From Candidatus Woesearchaeota archaeon (GTDB lineage Archaea; Nanobdellota; Nanobdellia; Woesearchaeales; ARS49): DNA of 64,000 nt. Every line of letters begins with the position of its first letter. Position 1 is the first letter of the stretch. The notes beneath the pieces were generated by a model that saw only the letters and a program-made list of their open reading frames with translations, searched no databases and was not told the DNA's origin. Shown one piece after another: positions 20,136-52,063 of the stretch. The stretch is from the NCBI GenBank assembly GCA_014729505.1, contig WJJS01000001.1:12938-76937 (forward strand), written 5' to 3'. Position numbers and translations under genes: made by a program.

Positions 20136-20253
20136 GGCGGAGTGGCTTAGCCTGGTTAGAGCACCGCGCTCATAGGTCATACCTTTGAGCACTGAGCTTT
20201 CGAGCTATGACGAAGAAACGCGGGGGTCACGAGTTCAAATCTCGTCTCCGCCA
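20136..20253 (+). tRNA. tRNA-Met/Ile2-type (anticodon CAT) with a 43-nt canonical intron (37/38)
   Basis: Acceptor GGCGGAG/CTCCGCC, anticodon arm CCGCG-CTCATA[intron]A-CGCGG, T arm ACGAG-TTCAAAT-CTCGT, discriminator A, T6 run after. G1:C72 argues against an initiator. Confidence 0.8.
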
Positions 20254-38826: not shown

Positions 38827-39483
38827 ATGTGTGGCCGCTACGCAATAGTCCAACAAAAAAACGATCTTGAAACATTCTATGACGCCAACATGAAAGCAGC
38901 ATGGAAACCGCGATACAACGCAGCACCCACACAAGAATTACCACTAGTGCTTGACGCAGATCCTGCGCATATCGTAGTCGCTCGATGGGGACTTATTCCT
39001 TTTTGGGCAAAAGACGACAAGATAGGAGCACGACTCATCAACGCACGAAGCGAAACTGTGGCAGAAAAACCGACTTTTCGAACATCGTTTAAGAAACGAC
39101 GATGCCTCATTCCCGCTACACATTTTTACGAATGGAAGAAAACAACAAGCATCAAGAAACCATTTGCAATTCATCTGAAGTCAAAAGAGTTGTTTTCATT
39201 TGCAGGACTGTGGGATGAATGGAAGAGTTCTAAAGGAGAATTGATTCGCACGTTTACAATATTGACGTGCGGTCCTAACAGTGTAATGAAAAAGATCCAT
39301 GATCGCATGCCGGTCATACTCAAAAAATCTGACGAAGAGGCGTGGATGAATCCTACGAGCTCAGAGACTGCACTGCAGAAGTTGTTGAAACCTTTTTCAT
39401 CGTCGCAACTCGTCGCGTACGAGATCAGCACGCTTGTCAACTTGCCGACAAACGACAACCCTGCAGTAGTACAACCAGTCTAA
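38827..39483 (+). CDS. SRAP-domain abasic-site processing protein (YedK/HMCES family)
   Basis: 218-aa ORF. MCGRYA (Cys2), YNAAPTQ, RWGLIPFWAKD, LINARSETVAEKPTFR, RCLIPATHFYEWKK and HDRMPVIL are collinear with E. coli YedK. Confidence 0.9.
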   Translation: MCGRYAIVQQKNDLETFYDANMKAAWKPRYNAAPTQELPLVLDADPAHIVVARWGLIPFWAKDDKIGARLINARSETVAEKPTFRTSFKKRRCLIPATHFYEWKKTTSIKKPFAIHLKSKELFSFAGLWDEWKSSKGELIRTFTILTCGPNSVMKKIHDRMPVILKKSDEEAWMNPTSSETALQKLLKPFSSSQLVAYEISTLVNLPTNDNPAVVQPV

Positions 39484-39535: not shown

Positions 39536-40006
39536 GTGACTACGCTTTTGTTTTTTGTCATGGGGTTATTAGGGGTGCGAGGAGAACAACGTATCATCAA
39601 TGATCATATTCTCTACTATGCCGTTTATCACACGCCGTGTTTATTGATCGACGCAGCAAACTGTGCAAACCCACACAAACTATATCCTCTGGCACGTGAA
39701 GAACAACTCTACAACATCCACGTTATTGAAGTCGAACTACTCTACGTTTTTCGCGACGTCCTACTGCGCTGTCACCGCTTTGCACAACAACGAGCAGTGC
39801 GCCACATACTCCTCACGACATTCAACCAACTCTTTCACTATCAAGACGCCAAAGAAAACGACAACATCCACGAACATGCATGGGAATTGCTGCGCACACT
39901 AGGACAACGCTATGACGTACGCGTCGGCATACATCACCGTCACGAAGCGCGCGCAAGACGATTTTGTGACGCGATCATTACGCAGCACTCTCTGGCGGGA
40001 TATTGA
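39536..40006 (+). CDS. Hypothetical protein; possibly a degenerate RecA/RadB-like fold (speculative)
   Basis: 156-aa ORF (GTG start; ATG at codon 9). GLLGVRGEQ and the hhhhD strand CLLID weakly recall Walker A/B. It lies 52 nt after the SRAP gene. Confidence 0.4.
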   Translation: MTTLLFFVMGLLGVRGEQRIINDHILYYAVYHTPCLLIDAANCANPHKLYPLAREEQLYNIHVIEVELLYVFRDVLLRCHRFAQQRAVRHILLTTFNQLFHYQDAKENDNIHEHAWELLRTLGQRYDVRVGIHHRHEARARRFCDAIITQHSLAGY

Positions 40007-40009
40007 ATT

Positions 40010-40324
40010 ATGGGACATACCGTATGGAGCCAACGGATGAATGCAGAGCGCATCATCACAGAACTACTTCGTTACAAGAAAGCATTGCGAAGCGAACAAC
40101 AAGCACTGTTTGACGAATTACTGAAACGATCCATGAATCATCTCGGTACCATAAGTTACGCAAACAGCATGCACACCTGGGCATTACTGCTCTTATCAAT
40201 ACTACTAGAACAAGAACAACGCATAAAGAAACTAGAACATGTGGTTAATAGATACCTATCAAAAAAAGAACAAGATCGTCGTGTGGCTGAAAACGAAAAC
40301 GACGAATATGCATCGAACCTATGA
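40010..40324 (+). CDS. Hypothetical helical protein
   Basis: 104-aa ORF, 3 nt after the previous gene. Its last 86 nt overlap the polymerase start in another frame. Confidence 0.4.
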   Translation: MGHTVWSQRMNAERIITELLRYKKALRSEQQALFDELLKRSMNHLGTISYANSMHTWALLLLSILLEQEQRIKKLEHVVNRYLSKKEQDRRVAENENDEYASNL

Positions 40325-42794
40325 GTACTCTGTCACACTCTACGCACACGAAGATGCACGAGAATTCCTTACAACGAACAAGATTGCTTTTACAGAACAA
40401 CTCAAAAAAGATCCTTTTCGCAACAAGAAACATGTTCTTGCCATAACGTTATCATGCGAACGACTCGCACCATTTGTAAGATGGTTTGAACTCGGCACCA
40501 AACACCGCATACCGCTTTACAATGCAGATATCACGCCGGAACAACGCTTTCTTTACGAGAACAAGCTAGTACCGTGCAGCAACGTGCGAGACGTTGATGG
40601 GAGACTTGTACACGTCAACGAATCCGCACCACCGCTAAGCACTGTTCATTTGCGATGCGCCACACAAGGACCTATTACACGATTAGAATACCAGGATCAC
40701 ACTATCGTAGGCGAGGAACGAGAAGTACTCGCGCATTTTACGCAACGCTTCAGACAGGACGATCCAGATGTACTACTTATGCGACGAGCATACAAAGCAG
40801 TACCACATCTCTTTGAACGGTTACGTGCGAACGGATTGCACGTGCCTTTTCATCGATGGGATGAGATACCGCTGCGCCACCGCGGCGGCAAGACACACTT
40901 CAGTTACGGAAGAGTATATTATCAAGATCACTCGTTTCAACTGCGAGGACGATTACTCGTTGACACGGCAAGCAGTGTAGGATCAACATGCTCTGTACCT
41001 GCAATCATCGAACTTGCACAGCTCACAGGCACTCGATTCCAACGCGTAGCAGCACGCAGTTTCGGTGCCTCATTTCAACTTCAACTCGTCAAAGAACTGC
41101 TCGCCCAAGATCTGCTTGTGCCATACAAGGAAAAACCCTTTGATGAACCGCTGCGCATGACAGAGTTATTCGACGCAGACAGAGCAGGACATACCTTTGA
41201 TCCTCAACTAGGATTTCACAATGATGTTGTAGCAATAGACTTCTCAAGCATGTATCCATGGATCATCCACAACTACAACATCAGCGCAGATACCATACTC
41301 ACAAAAAAAGGAAAGAAGACCAAGATTCCTGCAGTACCAATTGATGTAACCACACAATATCAAGGAGTGATACCAAAAGCAATCAAACCATTGTTAGATC
41401 GACGCATGTACTACAAAAAACATCCGACGCCGGAAAACAAACGACGAGCAATAGGACTAAAAACACTGCTCGTGACCTGTTATGGTTATCTGCGATTTCG
41501 CGAATTTAAAATGGGACTTGCCACATCACACATGGCAATTTGTTCATACGCGCGAGAACTCCTCCTACAATCAGCAACGCTTGCAGAAGAACAAGGCTTT
41601 CGCGTCATTCACGGCATCATCGATTCACTCTACATATCAAAAAAAGACATTACCACAACAGAAGTCGAAACATTTCGAAAAGAACTAGAACACATGAGCG
41701 GTATACCCGTTGCCTGCGATGGCATCTTCAAATGGATCGTGTTTCTTTCACGACGACATGACAACACTGTCGGAGTGCCGGCCCGTTATTTTGGCGCATA
41801 TAAAAATGGTGGCATTAAAGCAAGAGGTATTGAAGTACGACAATCGAGTGCGCCGCTACTTATACGACGATTCCAACAAAACGTGTTAGAAGAGCTCGCA
41901 GCGTTTTCAACGAAAAGAGCGATACAGGATCACTTGCCACAAGTCATGAAACGCGCACGAGCAGTCCTGCACGATCTGCCTGCGACGCCACGAGAAGAAC
42001 TGTGTTGCAGAATACGCATCAGTAAGACCACGTATTCTCGAAACATTCCACAACGGCAAGTGATACGCTTGTTAACACAACAAGGGAGAGACATTATCGC
42101 TGGACAGGTCATACGGTTCTGGTACAGTGCGAATGGACCGTTACTAGTCGATATGACTGGAAGGCCAGACTACAAAAAATATCGCGATTTGTTATTACGC
42201 GCAATACACTCAGTGTACCAGCCTTTCGGTTATACTACCAAACAACTACAACACCTCCTATTAGACGAATATCAAAGCGTTCTGCAAGATTTTGCGCGAC
42301 AACAGATCCGCTACGAATACGTGCCTATGAAAAAACACTATGCACAAAAACGAGGACTGTCAGAGAGAATCCTGCGACAACGACTGGAACGACAAGGATG
42401 GACGGTGTGGCGCGGCGGCAGCATACATATTACTCGTTATGAAGAACTGTATCCCAACGTACGACGAAAGTACGAATTACTCATCCGTCTGCTTGACGAT
42501 CATAAGCCAGACACAAAAGAAATACTGCAATATTATTGCATGATACAGCACGGCATGCCAGATTTTCTCTGCTACAAAAATGGACGATTCAAATTTGTTG
42601 AATGCAAATTGCAATACGAGCAATTAAGTCATCGACAAAAACGCTGCATTATGAAGCTACAAGACCTGGGATTTGATGTGGAAGTTCACAAACTCGTTGA
42701 CAAACGCACAAAAATGAGAGAGGCACTAGTTGACATGTTTACCAATTGCAAAATAGTACGAGAACGACAACTAGCCCTACTCTCAACATGGTGA
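40239..42794 (+). CDS. Family-B DNA polymerase lacking recognisable exonuclease motifs, fused to a C-terminal VRR-NUC nuclease domain
   Basis: 851-aa ORF. Pol motifs: A VAIDFSSMYPW (D334), B KTLLVTCYGYL (K408), C HGIIDSLY (D462). No DxE, NxxxFD or YxxxD at the expected sites. The C-terminus (from about aa 700) reads ERQGWTVWR...GMPDFLCYKNGRFKFVECKLQYEQLSHRQKRCIMKLQDLGFDVEVH. Confidence 0.85.
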   Translation: MWLIDTYQKKNKIVVWLKTKTTNMHRTYEYSVTLYAHEDAREFLTTNKIAFTEQLKKDPFRNKKHVLAITLSCERLAPFVRWFELGTKHRIPLYNADITPEQRFLYENKLVPCSNVRDVDGRLVHVNESAPPLSTVHLRCATQGPITRLEYQDHTIVGEEREVLAHFTQRFRQDDPDVLLMRRAYKAVPHLFERLRANGLHVPFHRWDEIPLRHRGGKTHFSYGRVYYQDHSFQLRGRLLVDTASSVGSTCSVPAIIELAQLTGTRFQRVAARSFGASFQLQLVKELLAQDLLVPYKEKPFDEPLRMTELFDADRAGHTFDPQLGFHNDVVAIDFSSMYPWIIHNYNISADTILTKKGKKTKIPAVPIDVTTQYQGVIPKAIKPLLDRRMYYKKHPTPENKRRAIGLKTLLVTCYGYLRFREFKMGLATSHMAICSYARELLLQSATLAEEQGFRVIHGIIDSLYISKKDITTTEVETFRKELEHMSGIPVACDGIFKWIVFLSRRHDNTVGVPARYFGAYKNGGIKARGIEVRQSSAPLLIRRFQQNVLEELAAFSTKRAIQDHLPQVMKRARAVLHDLPATPREELCCRIRISKTTYSRNIPQRQVIRLLTQQGRDIIAGQVIRFWYSANGPLLVDMTGRPDYKKYRDLLLRAIHSVYQPFGYTTKQLQHLLLDEYQSVLQDFARQQIRYEYVPMKKHYAQKRGLSERILRQRLERQGWTVWRGGSIHITRYEELYPNVRRKYELLIRLLDDHKPDTKEILQYYCMIQHGMPDFLCYKNGRFKFVECKLQYEQLSHRQKRCIMKLQDLGFDVEVHKLVDKRTKMREALVDMFTNCKIVRERQLALLSTW

Positions 42795-42882: not shown

Positions 42883-43659
42883 ATGCACAAAGCATTAACG
42901 ATAGTATTGCTAGGAATTCTTCTAGTTGGATGCTCAACAACACTAGACACGTCGTCGACAAATCCGCCAACAGCGCCGCACTCAACTTCAAGTCCTCCAA
43001 CAACACAACACCCCGCAACAGAGAACAATTCACAACACACCACAACACAAAATGATTCACAATATCCGACAACGCAGAACGATTCACAACACACGGCAAC
43101 CAATGACTACGTTGCGGGACGAGAACTCTTCAAACTACAACGGGATTCAGACAGTGCACTGGGACAACGAGTAACAGACTTTTTCCCACTTCCTGCAGGA
43201 GCAGTTCTTGTCGAGACAAGACATTTTGGAGCGCAACAATTCAAAGCAAATCTTGTATCAAAAACAGGAGACATATTTCCTTTAGTCAATGATGAAGGAT
43301 ACATTCTTACCACTACGCTGCACTCTTTTGCGGCAGGCCAGTACCTGCTAGACATGATCATCAATGGCGAAGTTACCTTTATCATACGAACACCGGACAT
43401 AGAAGAAGCAACATCATGGAGCGGAGCCGGCAAGAAGTTCACCCCCTTCTTTACACTTTCAGGAACCAACACCTTTGAGATGTCGTTTCAAGGAAATGGA
43501 TTATACATCGTGTCACTATACAATCAAGCAGGAGAACGCATCGCCGTACTTGCACAAGGCGACACCACAGAAAAAACAAACACTGACGTAACCGTACCAC
43601 AAGGACTCTATCTGTTAGGTATAGAATCAACAGGAGTCTGGGACATACAACTCAAATAA
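42883..43659 (+). CDS. Predicted lipoprotein with low-complexity T/Q/N stalk
   Basis: MHKALTIVLLGILLVGC contains a lipobox (LVGC), followed by TTQNDSQ(H/Y) repeats. Confidence 0.55.
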   Translation: MHKALTIVLLGILLVGCSTTLDTSSTNPPTAPHSTSSPPTTQHPATENNSQHTTTQNDSQYPTTQNDSQHTATNDYVAGRELFKLQRDSDSALGQRVTDFFPLPAGAVLVETRHFGAQQFKANLVSKTGDIFPLVNDEGYILTTTLHSFAAGQYLLDMIINGEVTFIIRTPDIEEATSWSGAGKKFTPFFTLSGTNTFEMSFQGNGLYIVSLYNQAGERIAVLAQGDTTEKTNTDVTVPQGLYLLGIESTGVWDIQLK

Positions 43660-46145: not shown

Positions 46146-46269
46146 TCCCCGCCCCCGGACTTGAACCAGGAACCTCGCGGTGACGGCTGACTCGCCTTCA
46201 CGTCTCGAGCGTTGCTCGGAATCAGTTGAGTTTCTACAGCCGCGCGCTCTACCATTGAGCTAGGCGGGG
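46146..46269 (-). tRNA. tRNA-Tyr (anticodon GTA) with a 52-nt canonical intron
   Basis: Acceptor CCCCGCC/GGCGGGG (the C1:G72 archaeal Tyr identity pair), anticodon arm CGCGG-CTGTAG[52]A-CCGCG, T arm CCTGG-TTCAAGT-CCGGG, discriminator A. Confidence 0.85.
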
Positions 46270-46346: not shown

Positions 46347-46664
46347 TTGATCATGACACCTCTCGATTATCTGGCAGTCTTTGAAGAACTTCGACGATAC
46401 GACGATGATCTTCCTAATAGAGAATTTGATGACTGGCATCCGTCATGGCCCAAACTGAAAGGCAGAGGCAATTCAATAGTGGGGTTACTACTCTATTTGC
46501 ATTTAGGACAAAGGCAGGGTTTGTTTGGAGATGAAGTAGAAGGTTGCCTTAGGCACGAATGGAGTGTGAAATCAGGACGTTATACGACGCCAGAAGAGAT
46601 AAAGTTGATCAACAGAACCTTAGACTATGTTATAGAGTATCTGCGAGAAACTACTTCACGATAA
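46347..46664 (+). CDS. Hypothetical protein
   Basis: 105-aa ORF (TTG start; ATG at 46353). Confidence 0.4.
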   Translation: MIMTPLDYLAVFEELRRYDDDLPNREFDDWHPSWPKLKGRGNSIVGLLLYLHLGQRQGLFGDEVEGCLRHEWSVKSGRYTTPEEIKLINRTLDYVIEYLRETTSR

Positions 46665-48057
46665 ACTGCGCTTTATTTGACTGTACAGAGCCCTTCTTGT
46701 CACCAGCACTGAAATGAACAATGATAGGATCGAGCGTGATTGTTCCAATCATTTGCACACGACTGCGAATCTTATACGTGACAAAGACTTCTTGACGACC
46801 TTCAACATTTTTGAATTCCCACTTAATACGAGTGCCAAGCGTGTCATGAGTGGACTTACTCTTCAAGGTCGCAACAGCAGAGGGTTTAACATGTCCAGGA
46901 CCGAATTCGCTTAGCACTTCAAAGACCTTTGGCACTTTTTCCACCAAGGAAATATCAACAGGAGAACGCGATCTATTGCGCACCTGTACATGAATAGAGA
47001 GCTCCTTACCACCATGATGGCGACGAATATTCTTCTTGACGACAACAGGAGCGCGAAACATATAATACGCTCCAAGCGCCAGTAACGCGATAATAATGAA
47101 AATAAGAATAGGCCAGTAATTTTTTGAGACCACAATAGTCTTGGATTCTTCAGGATCTAACTGAACAGTCCACACATACACACCGTCTTCTCGCTCAACT
47201 GAAGGCTCAGTCGATGAAAATAAGTTATCAAACCAGCTAACATCAAAACGATACGTATGACGCTTCACATCATTACCATTGTTTGTAAGCGTCACCACAT
47301 CGCGTGTTCGCAAAAATGATGAAGAGGATTGCAACTCTTCGGCTACCTCGCCGTATTCTGCCACTCTAAAAGCAACAGGCGAAGCTTCCATGCGAATCGT
47401 ACGATTCTCGTGTTCAGTAACCAGTGTTGCGCGCAGTTCATCCTCTTGAGGACGAAGGTCAGGATCGAGATCTGCAGTAAACGTGACTGTTTTTGTCTCG
47501 TCAGGACCCAACGTTACCGCGTGCTGGGCATTAATCAAATTACTGCGCACGTACAAGGTCATTTCAGTGATGTTACGTGGGTTCAAGTTTTCCATTTCAA
47601 GAGAATATGTTATGGGTTGTCGAGGATCAACAGACTCGGCAATATGTACTGTGGAACGCACTGAAGGCGTATACAAACGAGGAGTATCCACTAGCGGTTT
47701 CAAACCGACTAGAGGAGTCTCTTTTTTGACAACGCCAAATTGTCGGGCACTAAACGTGATAGGAATAAGATAAAATGCAGGATCATCAACATGCACTTGA
47801 CGAATACGCAATTTTGTAGTTAAACCCTGCGGCGGAACCCGAAGAACGTCTTTTGTAGAGACATCCCAGCGAATGTCAAGGGTGTACATAGTAATATAGA
47901 CCGTTTCACTCGAGTCATGAGTAATAGTCATATCAAATTCTGCAGTTTCATTCATGCGGATCGAGCGTTCATCAGGAGAAATCTGCACATCAAAAGAAAA
48001 CGCAGCAACACCAAACGCGCACAACAACAAGATGACCAATACAGTAATTCGTTTCAC
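46651..48057 (-). CDS. Secreted/membrane protein, unknown function
   Basis: 468-aa ORF with a signal peptide (MKRITVLVILLLCAFGVAA), a beta-rich ectodomain, one TM helix (ILIFIIIALLALGAYYMF) and a C-terminal beta-rich domain. Confidence 0.55.
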   Translation of the reverse strand: MKRITVLVILLLCAFGVAAFSFDVQISPDERSIRMNETAEFDMTITHDSSETVYITMYTLDIRWDVSTKDVLRVPPQGLTTKLRIRQVHVDDPAFYLIPITFSARQFGVVKKETPLVGLKPLVDTPRLYTPSVRSTVHIAESVDPRQPITYSLEMENLNPRNITEMTLYVRSNLINAQHAVTLGPDETKTVTFTADLDPDLRPQEDELRATLVTEHENRTIRMEASPVAFRVAEYGEVAEELQSSSSFLRTRDVVTLTNNGNDVKRHTYRFDVSWFDNLFSSTEPSVEREDGVYVWTVQLDPEESKTIVVSKNYWPILIFIIIALLALGAYYMFRAPVVVKKNIRRHHGGKELSIHVQVRNRSRSPVDISLVEKVPKVFEVLSEFGPGHVKPSAVATLKSKSTHDTLGTRIKWEFKNVEGRQEVFVTYKIRSRVQMIGTITLDPIIVHFSAGDKKGSVQSNKAQFIVK

Positions 48058-48106: not shown

Positions 48107-50149
48107 CTACTGTAAGCGACTGACATTCTCATATTTCGAGATGGACACTACATGATCTGCAAAACTCTCAATCTTTCGCTCATGACTTACAATAATTACT
48201 TGGTCAAGCTCAAGAGAGTCAAGGACCTCGCGCAAACGATCAAGCTGCTGGGACGAAAAACCATCGGTGGGCTCGTCAAGAATCAGCACATCCCTCGTCT
48301 TAATAGTAGTAATCAAGTTATTAATGACCTTAGTTAGCGCAAGACGATACGCGAGCGCACAAGCGGTACGCTCACCGCCACTCAAATTATCAATCGTTGT
48401 CTCATAACCATTTTGCTCAATAATAGGTGTGAACTCATCATCAAGACGTGCAGAAAACAAATCATCATCAACAAGAGCCGCAAACCACTCGGCAAACAAA
48501 TCATTAAAATTGTGATAAATACGCGCTAACACCTGCTTTTCAATATCCTGCATGAGCGGAATAAAATAACGCGACAACCAGTCACGCGTTTGAGAAACAT
48601 AACGCATCTTCTTTTGAGCCTTCACCTTTTCCTCGATCTCCTTATCAAGCGAATCAATTGTTTGAGAGAGAAGATCAGCTCGCTGAGCAAGCGCCGCAAC
48701 ACGCGCATGCAATTCCTGAAACGCACTAAGAGCAGTATCAAGACGTTTTTTCACCTCCTGCATCGCTTCAGGAACACCAGGAGTAATACGTTGACGCAAA
48801 AGTGCCAGTTCGTTCTTATGATCTTTTTCCAAGGTCATGAACTTCTCCAAGCGGGACTTCAATGTGAGAAGTTCCTTTTCTTGCTCTTGGCGCTGCGCAA
48901 CCTTTGCACGAACTTGCGCTTGAGCCTTTTCCTTTTCAAACATTTCTTGCAGCGCGGACCGAATATCCGAACACCTTTTTTCCAACTGTTCTTTTTGCTC
49001 CTTTTGCGACAATATCTTATCCTGCATACGCTGCAATTTTTGAGACTCCCGCTCAGCAATATTTTGCTTATGCTCTACAGACACGTTCTGCAAACAAGTC
49101 GGGCACTGAGACAAATTATTAATCGCCTGCTTCAACTCCTCGCTCTGCGAGATATGAGTACTACACACGGTGAGTCGCTCACGCACAGATGTTAATTCCT
49201 GCTCGACACTCTTTTGCTCCTCTTCGATCTTTTTGCGCTGCTCAGCAAGCTTCTCCTCGGTCAAGTGAGGCTCCAAAGGCACAGACACTGCCTGTGTCAA
49301 CACCGCGATACGAGAACGAAGATCCTCAGAAAATTGCGAAGTCTGAACGCATTTCTCTTCGAGAAGACGAATTTTTGTAATAAGTTCTTGTTGTTCTTTT
49401 GCAACGCGTTCCCTTTCTGCCACTTCCTTTTTTATCGTCTCAACCACTTGAAACGCAGAATCCTTTTGCGCCTTGACATCACGAAGCGATGCGATAGTGT
49501 GCGCATGATCCTTCTTCTTTTCTTGGAGTCCTTGTTGTTTTACAACAATATCCTTTGTAAACCCTTCAAGGTTGCGCTGCTTGTCACGAAGCGTGCGCAG
49601 GTAAGGCTGCGCATTATCACAAATACGCTTATACTTGTCAATATCAAAGATCTTTCGAAGCACATTAATCCTTGTCTCAGCACTCTCAGTCAAAATCCGC
49701 TTCATCTGCTCTTGAGGAGTATAAACCGTATACCGGTAAATCAACGTTTTACTCTTTGTCAGCATATCTTGAGGGTAGCCAAGCAAGTCAAGAATGCGCA
49801 CCTTGAGTTCAGTAGGAGTCAAATTATGCACGACACCATCAATAATAAGCACGCCTTCATCTTGATCAACAGTTCCTCGAGACGCTTTTAGAGATCGCTT
49901 GATAAACACATGCTGACCGTTCACGTTGAACTCGAGCGTCACAGATCCCTTTTTTGTACCATGACGAAGCAAAGCATTACCTGATAACATACCCCGAAGA
50001 ATGCCAAACAATGAAAACTCAATTGCGAGAAGAACCGTAGATTTGCCAGCACCAATATCGCCCTGCAACAATACCTTTCCTTGAGAAAATGATAACTTCT
50101 CATTAACATAAGAACGGATATTTTCCAGTTGTAAAGAGAGCAATCGCAT
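48107..50149 (-). CDS. rad50: Rad50-like SMC ATPase with CxxC zinc hook
   Basis: MRLLSLQLENIRSY, Walker A GDIGAGKST, hook SQCPTCLQ in the middle of the coiled coil, signature LSGGERTACALAYRLAL, Walker B VLILDEPTDGF. Start trimmed to the ATG at 50149. Confidence 0.85.
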   Translation of the reverse strand: MRLLSLQLENIRSYVNEKLSFSQGKVLLQGDIGAGKSTVLLAIEFSLFGILRGMLSGNALLRHGTKKGSVTLEFNVNGQHVFIKRSLKASRGTVDQDEGVLIIDGVVHNLTPTELKVRILDLLGYPQDMLTKSKTLIYRYTVYTPQEQMKRILTESAETRINVLRKIFDIDKYKRICDNAQPYLRTLRDKQRNLEGFTKDIVVKQQGLQEKKKDHAHTIASLRDVKAQKDSAFQVVETIKKEVAERERVAKEQQELITKIRLLEEKCVQTSQFSEDLRSRIAVLTQAVSVPLEPHLTEEKLAEQRKKIEEEQKSVEQELTSVRERLTVCSTHISQSEELKQAINNLSQCPTCLQNVSVEHKQNIAERESQKLQRMQDKILSQKEQKEQLEKRCSDIRSALQEMFEKEKAQAQVRAKVAQRQEQEKELLTLKSRLEKFMTLEKDHKNELALLRQRITPGVPEAMQEVKKRLDTALSAFQELHARVAALAQRADLLSQTIDSLDKEIEEKVKAQKKMRYVSQTRDWLSRYFIPLMQDIEKQVLARIYHNFNDLFAEWFAALVDDDLFSARLDDEFTPIIEQNGYETTIDNLSGGERTACALAYRLALTKVINNLITTIKTRDVLILDEPTDGFSSQQLDRLREVLDSLELDQVIIVSHERKIESFADHVVSISKYENVSRLQ

Positions 50150-50195
50150 AGTAAGAGGAAGAGGCAAAAGAGTATATAAGCACTGTTGGCGAGAA

Positions 50196-51122
50196 CTATA
50201 TATCTTTTGGCACCACAAACTGTCTATGGTGTTCAAGAGCAGTAATGAAGCGTTTTATTCTGTCAATACTAAGGTCTGATTGTCCAAACTGTCGACGAAG
50301 AGTCACCGACAAGACCGTGCCGCGCTCGTAACGACAGGTACTAGTATCAGTGAAAAAATAGTACTTGCCGTTAATCTTTTTTAGAGCGATAAGATGATGA
50401 TGTGCGCCATCCTTACAAAGCCATATCGGTCTTTTATGATTAAGATCAGAATACCACTGCGTAATTGAATCAACAACAACGTCGAGCTTCACTTTTTGAA
50501 CCTGTTGCAGGGTCTTAAAGAATTTTGGAGCGTGCTTTCTAATAGCTGCACGATTTCTTGTGTTCATGGCCCTAGAAAGAGCACAGGCAGCAGAACAAGG
50601 AGTGTGAGAGATAAAAGGAAATTTTCTCATCAGTTTCTCACGACGGGAAAAATACTCGTAATACGAATATTTCTTTTCAAGATACTTCTCTTCTTGCTCA
50701 CGAATAAACTCCCGAACACAACAAGCAGGATACCCATACAGTTTGCCAGCAATTTTATGAGCTGCTGTTTGACGGCCGCGCTTTATTTCAGACAAATAGT
50801 TCTCAAAAAGCTTTTTCTGCTTTTTTGAAGAAAAAACGTCAAAACCGTACCACGTACCTGCCATTTCCCACTCAATAATATTCTTATGAATACGCGCAAT
50901 CTGTTCAAACGATTTAGGATGGCTCACAGAGAAAAGACAGTTATTTTCCTGCAGATGAAACTGGAAATGCCTGCGCTCATCCAAAGTTGTGGGCGTGATA
51001 CGAAACTGAAGATAGGTAGCAGGCTTTAAACCTGCGGCAAAAAGAAGCAAACGCATACGCGCAGCAGTATCAAGGGCAGGCGTATCCTCTGCAAAGTCAA
51101 GAAACCTCCTCTTTTTATCCAT
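50196..51122 (-). CDS. Cys-motif protein (GYPACC...HTPCSAAC; resembles the archaeal DUF483-type domain)
   Basis: 308-aa ORF ending 46 nt upstream of the rad50 start on the same strand. The family assignment is from memory of the GYPxCC motif only. Confidence 0.4.
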   Translation of the reverse strand: MDKKRRFLDFAEDTPALDTAARMRLLLFAAGLKPATYLQFRITPTTLDERRHFQFHLQENNCLFSVSHPKSFEQIARIHKNIIEWEMAGTWYGFDVFSSKKQKKLFENYLSEIKRGRQTAAHKIAGKLYGYPACCVREFIREQEEKYLEKKYSYYEYFSRREKLMRKFPFISHTPCSAACALSRAMNTRNRAAIRKHAPKFFKTLQQVQKVKLDVVVDSITQWYSDLNHKRPIWLCKDGAHHHLIALKKINGKYYFFTDTSTCRYERGTVLSVTLRRQFGQSDLSIDRIKRFITALEHHRQFVVPKDI

Positions 51123-51199
51123 GATCAGTGGTACGACAACGCAGTATATATTTGTTTTGGACCAAAAAGTTTAAGAATCCATTAAAAATCAATTGTCAC

Positions 51200-52063
51200 A
51201 TGAAATTTCTCGCCATCGGTGATCTGCACGGCGCCATACCAAAGATTCACTTCAAGAATTTTCAGGCGGTTATTGCGCCAGGAGACTTTTGTTCAGATGC
51301 ACCACGACAATACATGTTTCAAGCATTACAATATAATTTGTCACATCCCACAAAAAAAGAAAAACAATGGTATGATATTGTAGGCAAACGCAAAGCAAAA
51401 GCAATGATTGAACAAAGCCTTGCAGACGGCAGAGTCATAGTAGAACGACTCAACGCTCTGAACGTACCTGTATATGTCGTACCAGGAAACTGGGACTGGA
51501 CACCAAAAGATGACAGCGATTGGCATTATTACAGAAAGCATCACTGGACAGCACTTCTTGAAGGATTAGAAAATATAATCGATTGCCATCATCGCCTCGT
51601 CGATGCAGGAACATTTGATATCATAGGACACGGCATTATTTCAGGACCGGAATATCCGCAACACAAAAAAGATCAACAACAACTCACTGCAAAACAACGA
51701 AAAGAAAAACGACGCGAGTACGACAGACAATATCGCAAACTGGACCGTTTATTTCAGCAATCACAAAAACCAGTACTTTTTATTTCTCACAATGTGCCTT
51801 ATGGCACGCCATTTGACAAGATCAACAATCCGTCCTCGCCACGAGACGGAGAACACGTAGGGTCAGTACTTGCAAGAAGAATGAGTCTCAAATATTCGCC
51901 GCTGCTAGGCATCGCAGGACACATGCACGAATATTTTGGCAAGTGCAGACTTGGAAAAACAACGTGGATTGATACCGGTTTTGGCTCAGATGTCAATGTA
52001 GCAATTGACGCAGCACCGCGAAAAATCCGTAAGATAGTTTTCAAAGGGAACACTGCAGTATAA
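51200..52063 (+). CDS. Calcineurin-like metallophosphoesterase
   Basis: AIGDLHG, APGDFCSD, VVPGNWDW, GHGII and IAGHMHEY. It is divergent from the rad50 operon and lacks the Mre11-specific GNHD motif. Confidence 0.65.
   Translation: MKFLAIGDLHGAIPKIHFKNFQAVIAPGDFCSDAPRQYMFQALQYNLSHPTKKEKQWYDIVGKRKAKAMIEQSLADGRVIVERLNALNVPVYVVPGNWDWTPKDDSDWHYYRKHHWTALLEGLENIIDCHHRLVDAGTFDIIGHGIISGPEYPQHKKDQQQLTAKQRKEKRREYDRQYRKLDRLFQQSQKPVLFISHNVPYGTPFDKINNPSSPRDGEHVGSVLARRMSLKYSPLLGIAGHMHEYFGKCRLGKTTWIDTGFGSDVNVAIDAAPRKIRKIVFKGNTAV

What the first reader, a model, noticed from the sequence alone, without database searches (positions are those of the whole stretch)
42336..42794. VRR-NUC nuclease domain appended to a DNA polymerase
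Seen: the last 150 aa or so of the 851-aa PolB read SERILRQRLERQGWTVWR...GMPDFLCYKNGRFKFVECKLQYEQLSHRQKRCIMKLQDLGFDVEVH. This reproduces the VRR-NUC order: E, GW.V.R, G.PD, hhE.K, LS..Q, G..V.V. Meanwhile the polymerase's own proofreading motifs are missing.

Inference: a polymerase that has lost its 3'-5' exonuclease but gained a structure-specific endonuclease suggests coupled incision and gap-filling on one polypeptide. From memory, this fusion is not a standard PolB1/B2/B3 or casposon PolB architecture.
Basis: partly seen in the sequence, partly recalled or inferred. Interest (0 to 1): 0.7.

Follow-up and report, generated by a model that had tools for sequence, protein, structure and literature searches.

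The report
Translesion polymerase PolB2 fused to nuclease
A tiny archaeon's damage-tolerance DNA polymerase (PolB2, sitting in its usual operon with two helper proteins) carries an intact FAN1-like DNA-cutting domain at its tail; the fusion recurs in many related archaea, I found no paper describing it, and it suggests that lesion bypass and cutting of branched DNA are physically coupled.

Summary

It is not an assembly artefact. 56 diverged homologs and 19 species-level genomes carry the same in-frame fusion, with the catalytic E/D/ExK/Q residues near-invariant.

The interpretation needs correcting. The polymerase is a standard PolB2 (B2 group), a translesion "extender". It has the hallmark IID motif C, the D(K/R) motif, degenerate Exo I/II and a deleted Exo III. 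It sits in the canonical iRadA–PPB2–PolB2 operon with SRAP next door. Exonuclease loss is ancestral to all PolB2, not a trade for the nuclease.

The nuclease is a small subfamily found almost only in genomes labelled Woesearchaeota/Nanoarchaeia. About two thirds of the species surveyed have it as a free-standing ~165-aa gene. It has a helical insertion between β1 and β2, where FAN1 has its dimer-blocking insertion, and it is joined directly after the polymerase's PIP-like motif.

Best model: PCNA-tethered lesion extension or gap filling coupled to flap/branch cleavage. This is inferred, not shown. I found no literature on the fusion. Verdict: new variant of a known system, moderate interest.

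The parts
38827..39483 (+). SRAP (SOS-response-associated peptidase / abasic-site shield), starts MCGRY
   Evidence: Pfam PF02586 E 2.8e-74. SRAP also lies within a few kb of PolB2 in L001, L002 and 5 fused GTDB loci. It is reported as enriched near polB2 (PMC11791011).
39560..40006 (+). iRadA: 148-aa Rad51/RadA-core protein with no Walker A GK[T/S]; it ends in QHSLAGY, which looks like a PIP box
40010..40324 (+). PPB2: small protein (the family is described as helical) starting MGHTVWSQR; it overlaps the polB2 start by 86 nt
   Evidence: BLAST E 1e-23 to 1e-28 to the C-terminal half of the iRadA-PPB2 fusions, which begins at an internal MGHT. All 13 homologs extracted start MGH[TI]..SQR. This matches the 'MGRT' + Arg9 arm described for PPB2.
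40239..42794 (+). PolB2::VRR-NUC fusion gene (851 aa + stop)
   Evidence: Identical to NCBI GF342_00350, Candidatus Woesearchaeota archaeon.
40239..40988 (+). N-terminal and degenerate exonuclease region (aa 1-250): Exo I/II acidic residues absent, Exo III segment deleted
   Evidence: Profile alignment to Deep Vent Pol and column counts. It is the least conserved region, at 43% mean pairwise identity.
41178..41183 (+). D314-R315, the PolB2-specific D(K/R) motif (contacts the PPB2 arm in the published models)
   Evidence: D is invariant in 109/109 and R is present in 104/109 homologs; motif defined in PMC11791011.
41238..41258 (+). Polymerase motif A, DFSSMYP (catalytic D334)
   Evidence: D334 invariant in 109/109.
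41460..41489 (+). Polymerase motif B, K408...Y415-G416
   Evidence: K408, G416 and Y417 invariant.
41610..41633 (+). Polymerase motif C, HGIIDSLY: a single Asp (D462), the I-I-D form as in S. islandicus PolB2
   Evidence: H-G-I-[VI]-D-S is conserved and D462 is invariant in 109/109. S. islandicus 401-IID-403. [quoted passage not shown]
42273..42296 (+). Junction motif Q679-SVLQDFA: PIP-box-like, equivalent to the C-terminal PCNA-binding motif of archaeal PolB, now internal
   Evidence: Q..[LIMV]..[FYW] is present in 55/56 fused proteins and near the C-terminus of 41/53 unfused ones. It aligns to the Deep Vent C-terminal KQTGLTAW. Q679 is invariant.
42300..42791 (+). VRR-NUC nuclease module (aa 688-851): N-terminal strand, alpha1, beta1, helical insertion, beta2-beta3, alpha, beta4, C-terminal hairpin
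42363..42365 (+). E709 (alpha1 acidic residue of the PD-(D/E)xK site)
   Evidence: Invariant in A1; E in 58 of the ~68 sequences with a residue at this column.
42414..42545 (+). Three-helix insertion between beta1 and beta2 (aa 726-769), at the position of FAN1's dimer-blocking insertion
   Evidence: DSSP of the model gives H39-46, H52-68 and H73-82 in tail numbering. The FAN1 insertion is described in PMC4103454. The insertion contains the conserved YPNV[RE][RK]KY.
42561..42608 (+). Catalytic core P774-D775 ... E788-C-K790
   Evidence: D, E and K are each present in 56 of 56 fused proteins and are invariant in A1.
42636..42638 (+). Q800 (the conserved VRR-NUC glutamine, from 'LS..Q')
   Evidence: Q in 56/56.
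42768..42791 (+). C-terminal tail Q844-LALLSTW: weak PIP-like motif on a low-confidence (flexible) tail
   Evidence: pLDDT of the last block is 60. The strict motif is present in the last 16 aa of 20/56 fused and the last 20 aa of 5/26 stand-alone-like proteins, against about 1% in shuffles. It is only partly conserved.

Best explanation
The gene encodes the catalytic subunit of an archaeal PolB2 translesion 'mutasome'. The operon is iRadA - PPB2 - PolB2, with the abasic-site shield SRAP next door, in a Woesearchaeota (DPANN) chromosome. Directly after the polymerase's own PCNA-binding-type motif it has acquired a catalytically intact VRR-NUC nuclease. The same nuclease exists as a free-standing ~165-aa gene in related species.

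Shown: domain identity, fold, conservation of both active sites, the operon, and recurrence of the fusion.

Inferred mechanism: PolB2, an exonuclease-less extender polymerase in Sulfolobus, extends past a lesion or fills a post-replicative gap while tethered to PCNA. The appended nuclease has a helical insertion between beta1 and beta2, where FAN1 carries the insertion that blocks dimerisation and biases it to 5' flaps. It would therefore act as a single-active-site, structure-specific nuclease on the same junction. The most likely job is cutting the 5' flap or branched end met or created downstream of the bypass patch, so the patch can be ligated. A second possibility is incising next to the lesion or stalled fork before extension. 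On this model the fusion guarantees 1:1 delivery of the nuclease with the polymerase.
For: PolB2 identity: motif C is HGIIDS with a single invariant Asp, D314-R315 is conserved, motifs A and B are intact, Exo I/II are degenerate and Exo III is deleted. These match the published B2/PolB2 diagnostics. The best NCBIfam model covers aa 1-666 end to end.

The fusion is real: 56 fused homologs come from NCBI, JGI, ENA and Logan assemblies, and 19 of 75 species genomes have it in frame.

Functional link beyond the fusion: in L005/L006 and L045 the free-standing nuclease lies 1.8-3.6 kb from an unfused PolB2. Fused and free forms interleave on both the polymerase and nuclease comparisons.

The insertion sits at the FAN1 position. 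The junction falls right after a PIP-like motif kept in 55/56 fused proteins. The Sulfolobus enzyme is an active, exo-less extender.
Against: No experiment or model here shows the substrate, the polarity of cleavage, the oligomeric state or any coupling.

About 50 of 75 species carry the nuclease as a separate gene with no PolB within 7 kb, so its function cannot depend on being fused. It may be a general repair nuclease.

The residue-level correspondence of the insertion to FAN1's was not inspected, because no coordinates or alignment were returned. The insertion has three helices, not two.

A domain attached with no linker right after the PIP motif would sit near PCNA on the product duplex, not obviously at a downstream flap.

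The nuclease's own C-terminal PIP-like motif is only partly conserved.

Placement of the polymerase in the B2 clade rests on motifs and operon context, not on a phylogeny with reference sequences. The NCBIfam score (317 bits) is below that model's cut-off (516).
Confidence: 0.55

Rival explanations
1. Co-expression fusion without mechanistic coupling. The nuclease is a general-purpose repair or recombination nuclease of Woesearchaeota. In some lineages it happened to fuse to the neighbouring damage-inducible polB2 gene and gained the same regulation, but it acts independently of the polymerase.
For: Two thirds of species have it free-standing and unlinked to PolB. Free and fused forms interleave, implying easy fusion and fission. 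The junction is a plain end-to-start join with no dedicated linker.
Against: The fusion has persisted across proteins only 45-50% identical, with both active sites conserved. At least two lineages keep the free gene within 1.8-3.6 kb of an unfused PolB2. Gene fusions are generally good predictors of physical or functional interaction (established 'Rosetta stone' principle).
Confidence: 0.25
2. Holliday-junction or reversed-fork resolvase module. As in bacterial and phage stand-alone VRR-NUC proteins, the domain dimerises. It makes the fused polymerase a dimer that resolves four-way junctions at regressed forks before or after PolB2 synthesis.
Against: The best matches are FAN1, with 122-127 residues aligned. 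A 44-residue helical insertion sits between beta1 and beta2, exactly where FAN1's insertion occludes the dimer interface. iRadA lacks ATPase motifs and in the published models is a structural subunit.
Confidence: 0.12
3. Surrogate proofreader or primer-end trimmer. The nuclease replaces the lost 3'-5' exonuclease, removing mismatched or damaged 3' ends for the polymerase.
For: The polymerase has no exonuclease active site and the nuclease is on the same chain.
Against: Exo loss is ancestral to all PolB2, and hundreds of PolB2s lack any nuclease. PolB2's characterised role is to extend mismatched termini, the opposite of proofreading. Characterised VRR-NUC enzymes cut 5' flaps, degrade 5'-3' or cut four-way junctions, not 3' termini.
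Confidence: 0.04
4. Artefact: a chimeric assembly, a missed stop or frameshift, or a decaying pseudogene tail.
For: The source is a metagenome-assembled genome and raw reads could not be checked.
Against: The same in-frame architecture occurs in 56 diverged protein clusters from four independent data sources and in 19 GTDB species genomes. Catalytic residues are invariant and the domain is as conserved as the polymerase core. The ORF is continuous.
Confidence: 0.01

Closest known systems
Archaeal PolB2 (B2 group; Sulfolobus Dpo2) mutasome: PolB2 + iRadA + PPB2 trimer (Timinskas et al. 2025, PMC11791011; Feng et al. 2022, PMC8764526; Kazlauskas et al. 2020, PMC7544198)
   Same: I-I-D motif C with one Asp, the D(K/R) motif, intact motifs A and B, Exo I not conserved, Exo III missing, the iRadA-PPB2-PolB2 gene order, PPB2's N-terminal MG[R/H]T..R arm, iRadA with a Rad51 fold and no ATPase motifs, SRAP nearby, and a PIP-like motif at the end of the polymerase and of iRadA.
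   Different: It carries a ~164-aa VRR-NUC nuclease after the polymerase C-terminus. This is not mentioned in the main text or the held supplements of the mutasome paper, which also contain no Woesearchaeota or Nanoarchaeota entries. PPB2 has His instead of Arg at position 3. The host is a DPANN archaeon rather than TACK, Euryarchaeota or Bacteria.
FAN1 (Fanconi-associated nuclease 1) VRR-NUC domain
   Different: No Pfam family was detected in the N-terminal region, so there is no sign of FAN1's UBZ, SAP or TPR domains; it is not a FAN1 ortholog. The insertion has three helices rather than two. There are extra N-terminal strand and C-terminal hairpin elements. It is attached to a polymerase or free-standing.
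Stand-alone bacterial and phage VRR-NUC proteins (PDB 4qbn, 4qbo, 4qbl; Pennell et al. 2014)
   Same: [quoted passage not shown]
   Different: Those proteins are ~90-120 aa dimers that resolve Holliday junctions. This module is ~165 aa, with the beta1-beta2 insertion and terminal extensions. No relatives were found on viral contigs.
Bacterial DNA polymerase I (polymerase + 5' nuclease on one chain), functional analogy only
   Same: One polypeptide combines a DNA polymerase with what is probably a flap or 5'-end nuclease, which would allow gap filling to a ligatable nick.
   Different: The folds are unrelated (A-family polymerase, FEN/PIN-like 5' nuclease at the N-terminus). Here it is a B-family TLS polymerase with a PD-(D/E)xK nuclease at the C-terminus. 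The analogy is an inference from architecture, not a tested property.

Membership tests
VRR-NUC (Pfam PF08774; PD-(D/E)xK superfamily) | Profile HMM score at or above the curated gathering score | tested here: met
   29.8 bits (whole protein) and 33.3 bits (tail) against a cut-off of 23.8. Pfam is precomputed on ~45 homologs.
VRR-NUC (Pfam PF08774; PD-(D/E)xK superfamily) | Catalytic constellation E (alpha1) ... D (beta2) ... E-x-K (beta3) plus the conserved Gln | tested here: met
   E709, D775, E788, K790 and Q800 are present and near-invariant in 56 fused and 26 stand-alone-like sequences.
VRR-NUC (Pfam PF08774; PD-(D/E)xK superfamily) | [quoted passage not shown] | tested here: met
VRR-NUC (Pfam PF08774; PD-(D/E)xK superfamily) | Metal-dependent structure-specific nuclease activity | not testable with these tools
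   Needs biochemistry.
FAN1 orthologs | Helical insertion between beta1 and beta2 of the VRR-NUC domain (blocks dimerisation) | tested here: inconclusive
   The model has helices at tail residues 39-46, 52-68 and 73-82 between beta1 and beta2. More residues align to FAN1 than to minimal VRR-NUC. Residue-level equivalence and packing on the dimer face could not be inspected.
FAN1 orthologs | N-terminal SAP and TPR (and, in animals, UBZ) domains preceding the nuclease | tested here: not met
   Pfam finds only DNA_pol_B and VRR_NUC in the fused protein, and only VRR_NUC in the free-standing forms. So it is not a FAN1 ortholog, only FAN1-like in its nuclease module.
FAN1 orthologs | Monomeric; 5' flap endonuclease and 5'-3' exonuclease; no HJ cleavage | not testable with these tools
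   Needs SEC-MALS or AUC and nuclease assays.
Archaeal PolB2 / B2 group | Motif C with only one conserved Asp (first Asp of DxD replaced; I-I-D in S. islandicus) | tested here: met
   H458-G-I-I-D462-S. D462 is invariant and position 460 is I/V in 109/109. Definitions.
Archaeal PolB2 / B2 group | Exo I not conserved, Exo III missing, no exonuclease active site | tested here: met
   Columns aligned to D141/E143/N210/D215 of Deep Vent are variable and non-acidic. The Exo III segment is deleted. Definition.
Archaeal PolB2 / B2 group | Conserved D(K/R) motif in the loop that contacts PPB2 | tested here: met
   D314 in 109/109 and R315 in 104/109. Definition.
Archaeal PolB2 / B2 group | Operon with iRadA and PPB2 | tested here: met
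   Window ORFs 39560..40006 and 40010..40324 lie immediately upstream. They are homologous to the iRadA-PPB2 fusion genes upstream of PolB2 in relatives. iRadA has a Rad51 fold.
Archaeal PolB2 / B2 group | Phylogenetic placement inside the B2 clade with reference B1/B2/B3 sequences | not tested
   No reference PolB2 sequences could be obtained. The best NCBIfam model (NF004416, end-to-end alignment) scores 317 bits, below its 516-bit cut-off, and I could not verify which clade that model represents.
Archaeal PolB2 / B2 group | Active polymerase without proofreading; mismatch and lesion extender | not testable with these tools
   Shown only for Sulfolobus Dpo2.
iRadA (inactivated RadA of PolB2 operons) | Rad51/RadA ATPase-core fold lacking the N-terminal domain and the ATPase active-site residues | tested here: met
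PPB2 (arCOG07300) | Conserved N-terminal arm 'MGRT' with Arg at positions 3 and 9 | tested here: met
   The window has M-G-H-T-V-W-S-Q-R: His for Arg at position 3, and Arg9 present. The same holds in 13 homologs.
PPB2 (arCOG07300) | Three-helix fold forming a trimer | not tested
SRAP (PF02586) | Profile match and N-terminal catalytic Cys2 | tested here: met
   E 2.8e-74 over the full length. The sequence begins MCGRY.
PIP box (PCNA-interacting peptide) | Q-x-x-[LIMV]-x-x-[FYW]-[FYW] on a flexible segment; binding to PCNA | tested here: inconclusive
   The junction Q679SVLQDFA aligns to the Deep Vent PolB C-terminal QTGLTAW and is kept in 55/56. The nuclease C-terminus QLALLSTW is PIP-like but the motif is only partly conserved. 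Binding was not tested.

The most novel reading that the evidence does not exclude
The fused protein is a single-chain archaeal counterpart of the eukaryotic FAN1 + Pol zeta partnership. A FAN1-type monomeric nuclease and a Pol-zeta-like extender polymerase, both riding on PCNA, would together incise or unhook and then bypass replication-blocking lesions such as crosslinks or SRAP-protected abasic sites. On this reading the nuclease-plus-extender logic of crosslink and stalled-fork repair, and possibly the FAN1-type insertion itself, predates eukaryotes.
Probability: 0.15. Interest if true: 0.8.

Novelty: new variant of a known kind. Interest (0 to 1): 0.55.

Why it matters
PolB2 was long written off as an inactivated polymerase. 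It is now recognised as the archaeal (and some bacterial) counterpart of Pol zeta, yet how its bypass patches are started, finished and handed to ligase is unknown.

A natural, recurrent fusion to a catalytically intact FAN1-like nuclease names a concrete candidate partner activity for the PolB2 mutasome. It gives experimenters a single polypeptide in which to test the coupling of lesion extension with flap or branch cleavage.

It extends the PolB2 operon to DPANN archaea, which the published survey did not cover.

It also identifies a compact (~165 aa) VRR-NUC with an insertion between beta1 and beta2, where FAN1 carries its insertion. That may help explain how this nuclease family switched from dimeric junction resolvase to monomeric flap nuclease.

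Tried and rejected
1. Pfam and NCBIfam on the two small upstream ORFs gave nothing useful. The local Pfam copy lacks PF26485/DUF8156, which the precomputed tables assign to the fused iRadA-PPB2 homologs.

2. A sequence profile of iRadA against PDB sequences found no RadA or Rad51, only a designed protein. The assignment needed a fold search.

The model is therefore only moderately confident.

4. The word-indexed homolog search with iRadA found only 3 proteins.

5. An NJ tree of the polymerase core is star-like and cannot count fusion and fission events. Nearest-neighbour analysis of the nucleases shows only that the two states interleave.

6. Conserved neighbours of the free-standing nuclease: an ATP-dependent DNA ligase lies 0.5-2.9 kb upstream in 10 loci. 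All belong to one clade with 76-99% identical nucleases, so this is synteny, not independent evidence.

7. Viral origin: no relatives on IMG/VR contigs.

8. Defence-system reading: no meaningful PADLOC hit.

9. Literature: no paper holding VRR-NUC together with PolB2, Woesearchaeota or translesion describes this fusion. The one 'PolB fusion' paper concerns an unrelated helicase-pPolB and a BRO-N-VRR-NUC protein in a dinoflagellate virus.

10. Chimeric assembly, and the nuclease as a proofreading surrogate, were both rejected; see the rival explanations.
Full report
OBSERVATION. Pfam finds DNA_pol_B at aa 280-632 (E 7e-14) and VRR_NUC at aa 763-816. The VRR_NUC score is 29.8 bits against a gathering score of 23.8, and 33.3 bits when the tail is scanned alone. 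The identical protein is in NCBI as hypothetical protein GF342_00350 of a Candidatus Woesearchaeota archaeon MAG. The rest of the window is ordinary archaeal chromosome: RNA polymerase subunits, thermosome, aEF-2, EF-1alpha, GluRS and sugar-metabolism genes.

THE FUSION IS NOT AN ARTEFACT. A search of 5.8 billion protein clusters returned more than 50 full-length homologs of 810-870 aa, only 43-50% identical to the query. They come from NCBI, JGI, ENA and Logan assemblies, and most are already annotated with both PF00136 and PF08774. In an alignment of 109 near-full-length homologs, 56 carry the PD...ExK tail. An independent scan of one genome per GTDB species with the nuclease alone found 75 loci, and in 19 of them the nuclease is in frame behind a PolB2. 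Among 52 fused proteins the nuclease region is as conserved as the polymerase core. Mean pairwise identity is 52% for the nuclease, 55% for the core and 43% for the N-terminal degenerate exonuclease region.

Pennell et al. showed that minimal VRR-NUC proteins are dimeric Holliday-junction resolvases. FAN1, by contrast, has a helical insertion between beta1 and beta2 that occludes the dimer interface, making it a monomeric 5' flap nuclease (PMC4103454). The insertion here is at the same topological position. I could not inspect residue-level equivalence, so calling it 'FAN1-type' is an inference. The protein is not a FAN1 ortholog, because no SAP, TPR or UBZ domains are present.

THE POLYMERASE IS PolB2. 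Motif A (D334), motif B (K408...YG) and a motif C reading H-G-I-[IV]-D-S, with only one Asp (D462), are invariant in all 109 homologs. So is a D-R pair at 314-315. A family profile aligned to Deep Vent polymerase shows that the Exo I and Exo II acidic positions are variable and non-acidic. The segment that would carry Exo III is deleted.

[quoted passage not shown] Sulfolobus PolB2 (Dpo2) is an active polymerase without proofreading. It is poor at insertion opposite lesions but excellent at extending mismatched or lesion-paired termini, and its authors compare it to Pol zeta (PMC8764526).

So the missing proofreading motifs are an ancestral family trait, not a change linked to gaining the nuclease. 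I did not place the protein in a tree with reference B1/B2/B3 sequences. The best NCBIfam model aligns end to end but scores below its cut-off.

THE OPERON. Immediately upstream lie two small ORFs that Pfam and NCBIfam do not recognise. In relatives, a single ~225-aa gene (precomputed Pfam DUF8156) sits upstream of PolB2. The window's ORF 39560..40006 matches its N-terminal half (E 1e-20 to 1e-40). ORF 40010..40324 matches its C-terminal half (E 1e-23 to 1e-28), which begins at an internal MGHT.

This is the arrangement Timinskas et al. describe for PolB2 mutasomes: iRadA, PPB2 with a conserved N-terminal 'MGRT' arm and Arg9, occasional iRadA-PPB2 fusions, and the gene order iRadA-PPB2-PolB2. 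All 13 PPB2 homologs I extracted begin MGH[TI]..SQR.

DISTRIBUTION AND ORIGIN OF THE NUCLEASE. An exhaustive HMMER search of 1.84 billion representative proteins with the tail found only 119 relatives, 64 of them at E <= 1e-10. Their lengths are either ~150-230 aa or ~830-920 aa. The record titles of the 75 genome loci are almost all Woesearchaeota, Nanoarchaeia or Nanoarchaeota. Many are labelled 'uncultured Methanosarcinales archaeon' and a few carry bacterial labels; I regard these as unreliable labels or mis-binning and did not verify them.

About 50 loci have the nuclease as a free-standing ~165-aa gene with no PolB within 7 kb. In L045 and L005/L006 it lies 3.6 and 1.8 kb from an unfused PolB2; the L005 polymerase is followed by iRadA. 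L022 has only a partial PolB-like hit on the opposite strand. Free and fused nucleases interleave: 7 of 20 fused have a free-standing nearest neighbour. Fused and unfused polymerases interleave on a poorly resolved NJ tree. So the state has changed repeatedly. No relatives occur on IMG/VR viral contigs and nothing matches a defence family.

THE JUNCTION. The polymerase part ends in Q679-SVLQDFA. This motif (Q..[LIMV]..[FYW]) is kept in 55 of 56 fused proteins and lies near the C-terminus of 41 of 53 unfused ones. In the profile alignment it matches the C-terminal KQTGLTAW of Deep Vent polymerase. From background knowledge, that is the PCNA-interacting motif of Thermococcales PolB.

The nuclease's first beta-strand follows within two residues, and free-standing homologs start at that strand. 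The fusion is therefore a simple end-to-start join. The nuclease's own flexible C-terminus (QLALLSTW; pLDDT ~60) is weakly PIP-like. The strict pattern occurs in 20/56 fused and 5/26 free-standing-like proteins, against ~1% in shuffles. iRadA ends in QHSLAGY, in line with the report that iRadA often carries the clamp-binding motif.

MECHANISM (inferred). The best-supported reading is a PCNA-tethered PolB2 mutasome that brings its own single-active-site, structure-specific nuclease. The polymerase extends past a lesion or fills a post-replicative gap. The nuclease trims the flap or branched end at the downstream boundary, or incises next to the block, so the patch can be sealed.

The shown steps are domain identity, intact active sites, operon membership, and recurrence and conservation of the fusion. 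The inferred steps are monomeric state, flap specificity, PCNA binding, order of action and any coupling.

The main rival is that the fusion only co-regulates an otherwise independent repair nuclease. The fact that the gene is free-standing and unlinked in most species supports this rival. A dimeric junction-resolvase role is less likely given the insertion. A proofreading-surrogate role and an assembly artefact are effectively excluded.

NOVELTY. The PolB2 mutasome, SRAP association and VRR-NUC/FAN1 nucleases are all known. What I could not find in the searchable literature is any description of a PolB2-VRR-NUC fusion or of PolB2 operons in Woesearchaeota. The domain pair is visible in automated annotations. 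I therefore class it as a new variant of a known kind, of moderate interest. It nominates a partner nuclease for an enigmatic translesion polymerase and offers a compact FAN1-like module for study.

Noticed in passing
window 40239-40324: The PPB2 ORF (40010..40324) overlaps the start of polB2 (40239) by 86 nt in a different frame. A similar ~100-nt overlap is seen in relatives (e.g. L012, L002). The overlapping PPB2 tail is not conserved.
   Followed up: partly
window 39560-40324 vs L001:4534-5205, L002:5364-6041, L013:2108-2800: iRadA and PPB2 are separate ORFs in the window, with the stop at 40004-40006 and the next ATG at 40010. In several relatives they form one ~225-aa fused ORF (precomputed Pfam DUF8156) with an internal MGHT. 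Of 13 GTDB loci examined, 3 are fused and 10 split.
   Followed up: partly
window 39983-40003: iRadA ends in QHSLAGY, a PIP-box-like C-terminus. This is consistent with the published observation that iRadA, more often than PolB2, carries the clamp-binding motif. With the junction motif and the nuclease tail, the operon may encode three PIP-like peptides.
   Followed up: no
window 20136-20253 (+) and 46146-46269 (-): Rfam finds two additional tRNAs of 118 and 124 nt that ARAGORN did not report. They are probably intron-containing archaeal tRNA genes.
   Followed up: no
window 48107-50236 (-) and 51128-52063 (+): A Rad50-like SMC/AAA_23 ATPase and a calcineurin-like phosphoesterase (possibly Mre11-like) lie about 5-8 kb downstream of the PolB2 operon. 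The ORFs between and beside them (46651..48057, 50196..51122) have no Pfam family.
   Followed up: partly
window 42883-43659 (+): Immediately downstream of the fusion gene is a 258-aa ORF with a lipoprotein-like N-terminus (LLVGCS) and a Thr/Gln/Ser-rich repeat (TTQNDSQ...). No family was assigned, and it is not conserved next to PolB2 in relatives.
   Followed up: no
L062, L063, L069, L070, L072, L073, L074, L076, L078, L079: In one clade of Woesearchaeota-like genomes the free-standing nuclease lies 0.5-2.9 kb downstream of an ATP-dependent DNA ligase (Pfam DNA_ligase_A_N/M/C). All ten nucleases are 76-99% identical, so this is clade-level synteny rather than independent evidence of a link.
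   Followed up: yes
L028, L071, and the many 'uncultured Methanosarcinales archaeon' loci among L029-L085; P0041, P0082: Record titles assign some of these archaeal PolB2 or nuclease contigs to Acidobacteriota, Binatia, Omnitrophica or Methanosarcinales. The sequences nest among Woesearchaeota/Nanoarchaeia homologs, which suggests mis-binning or placeholder taxonomy.
   Followed up: no
window 1-64000: The + strand has a persistent positive AT skew (mostly 0.1-0.35) and negative GC skew over almost the whole 64 kb, apparently regardless of which strand the genes are on.
   Followed up: no
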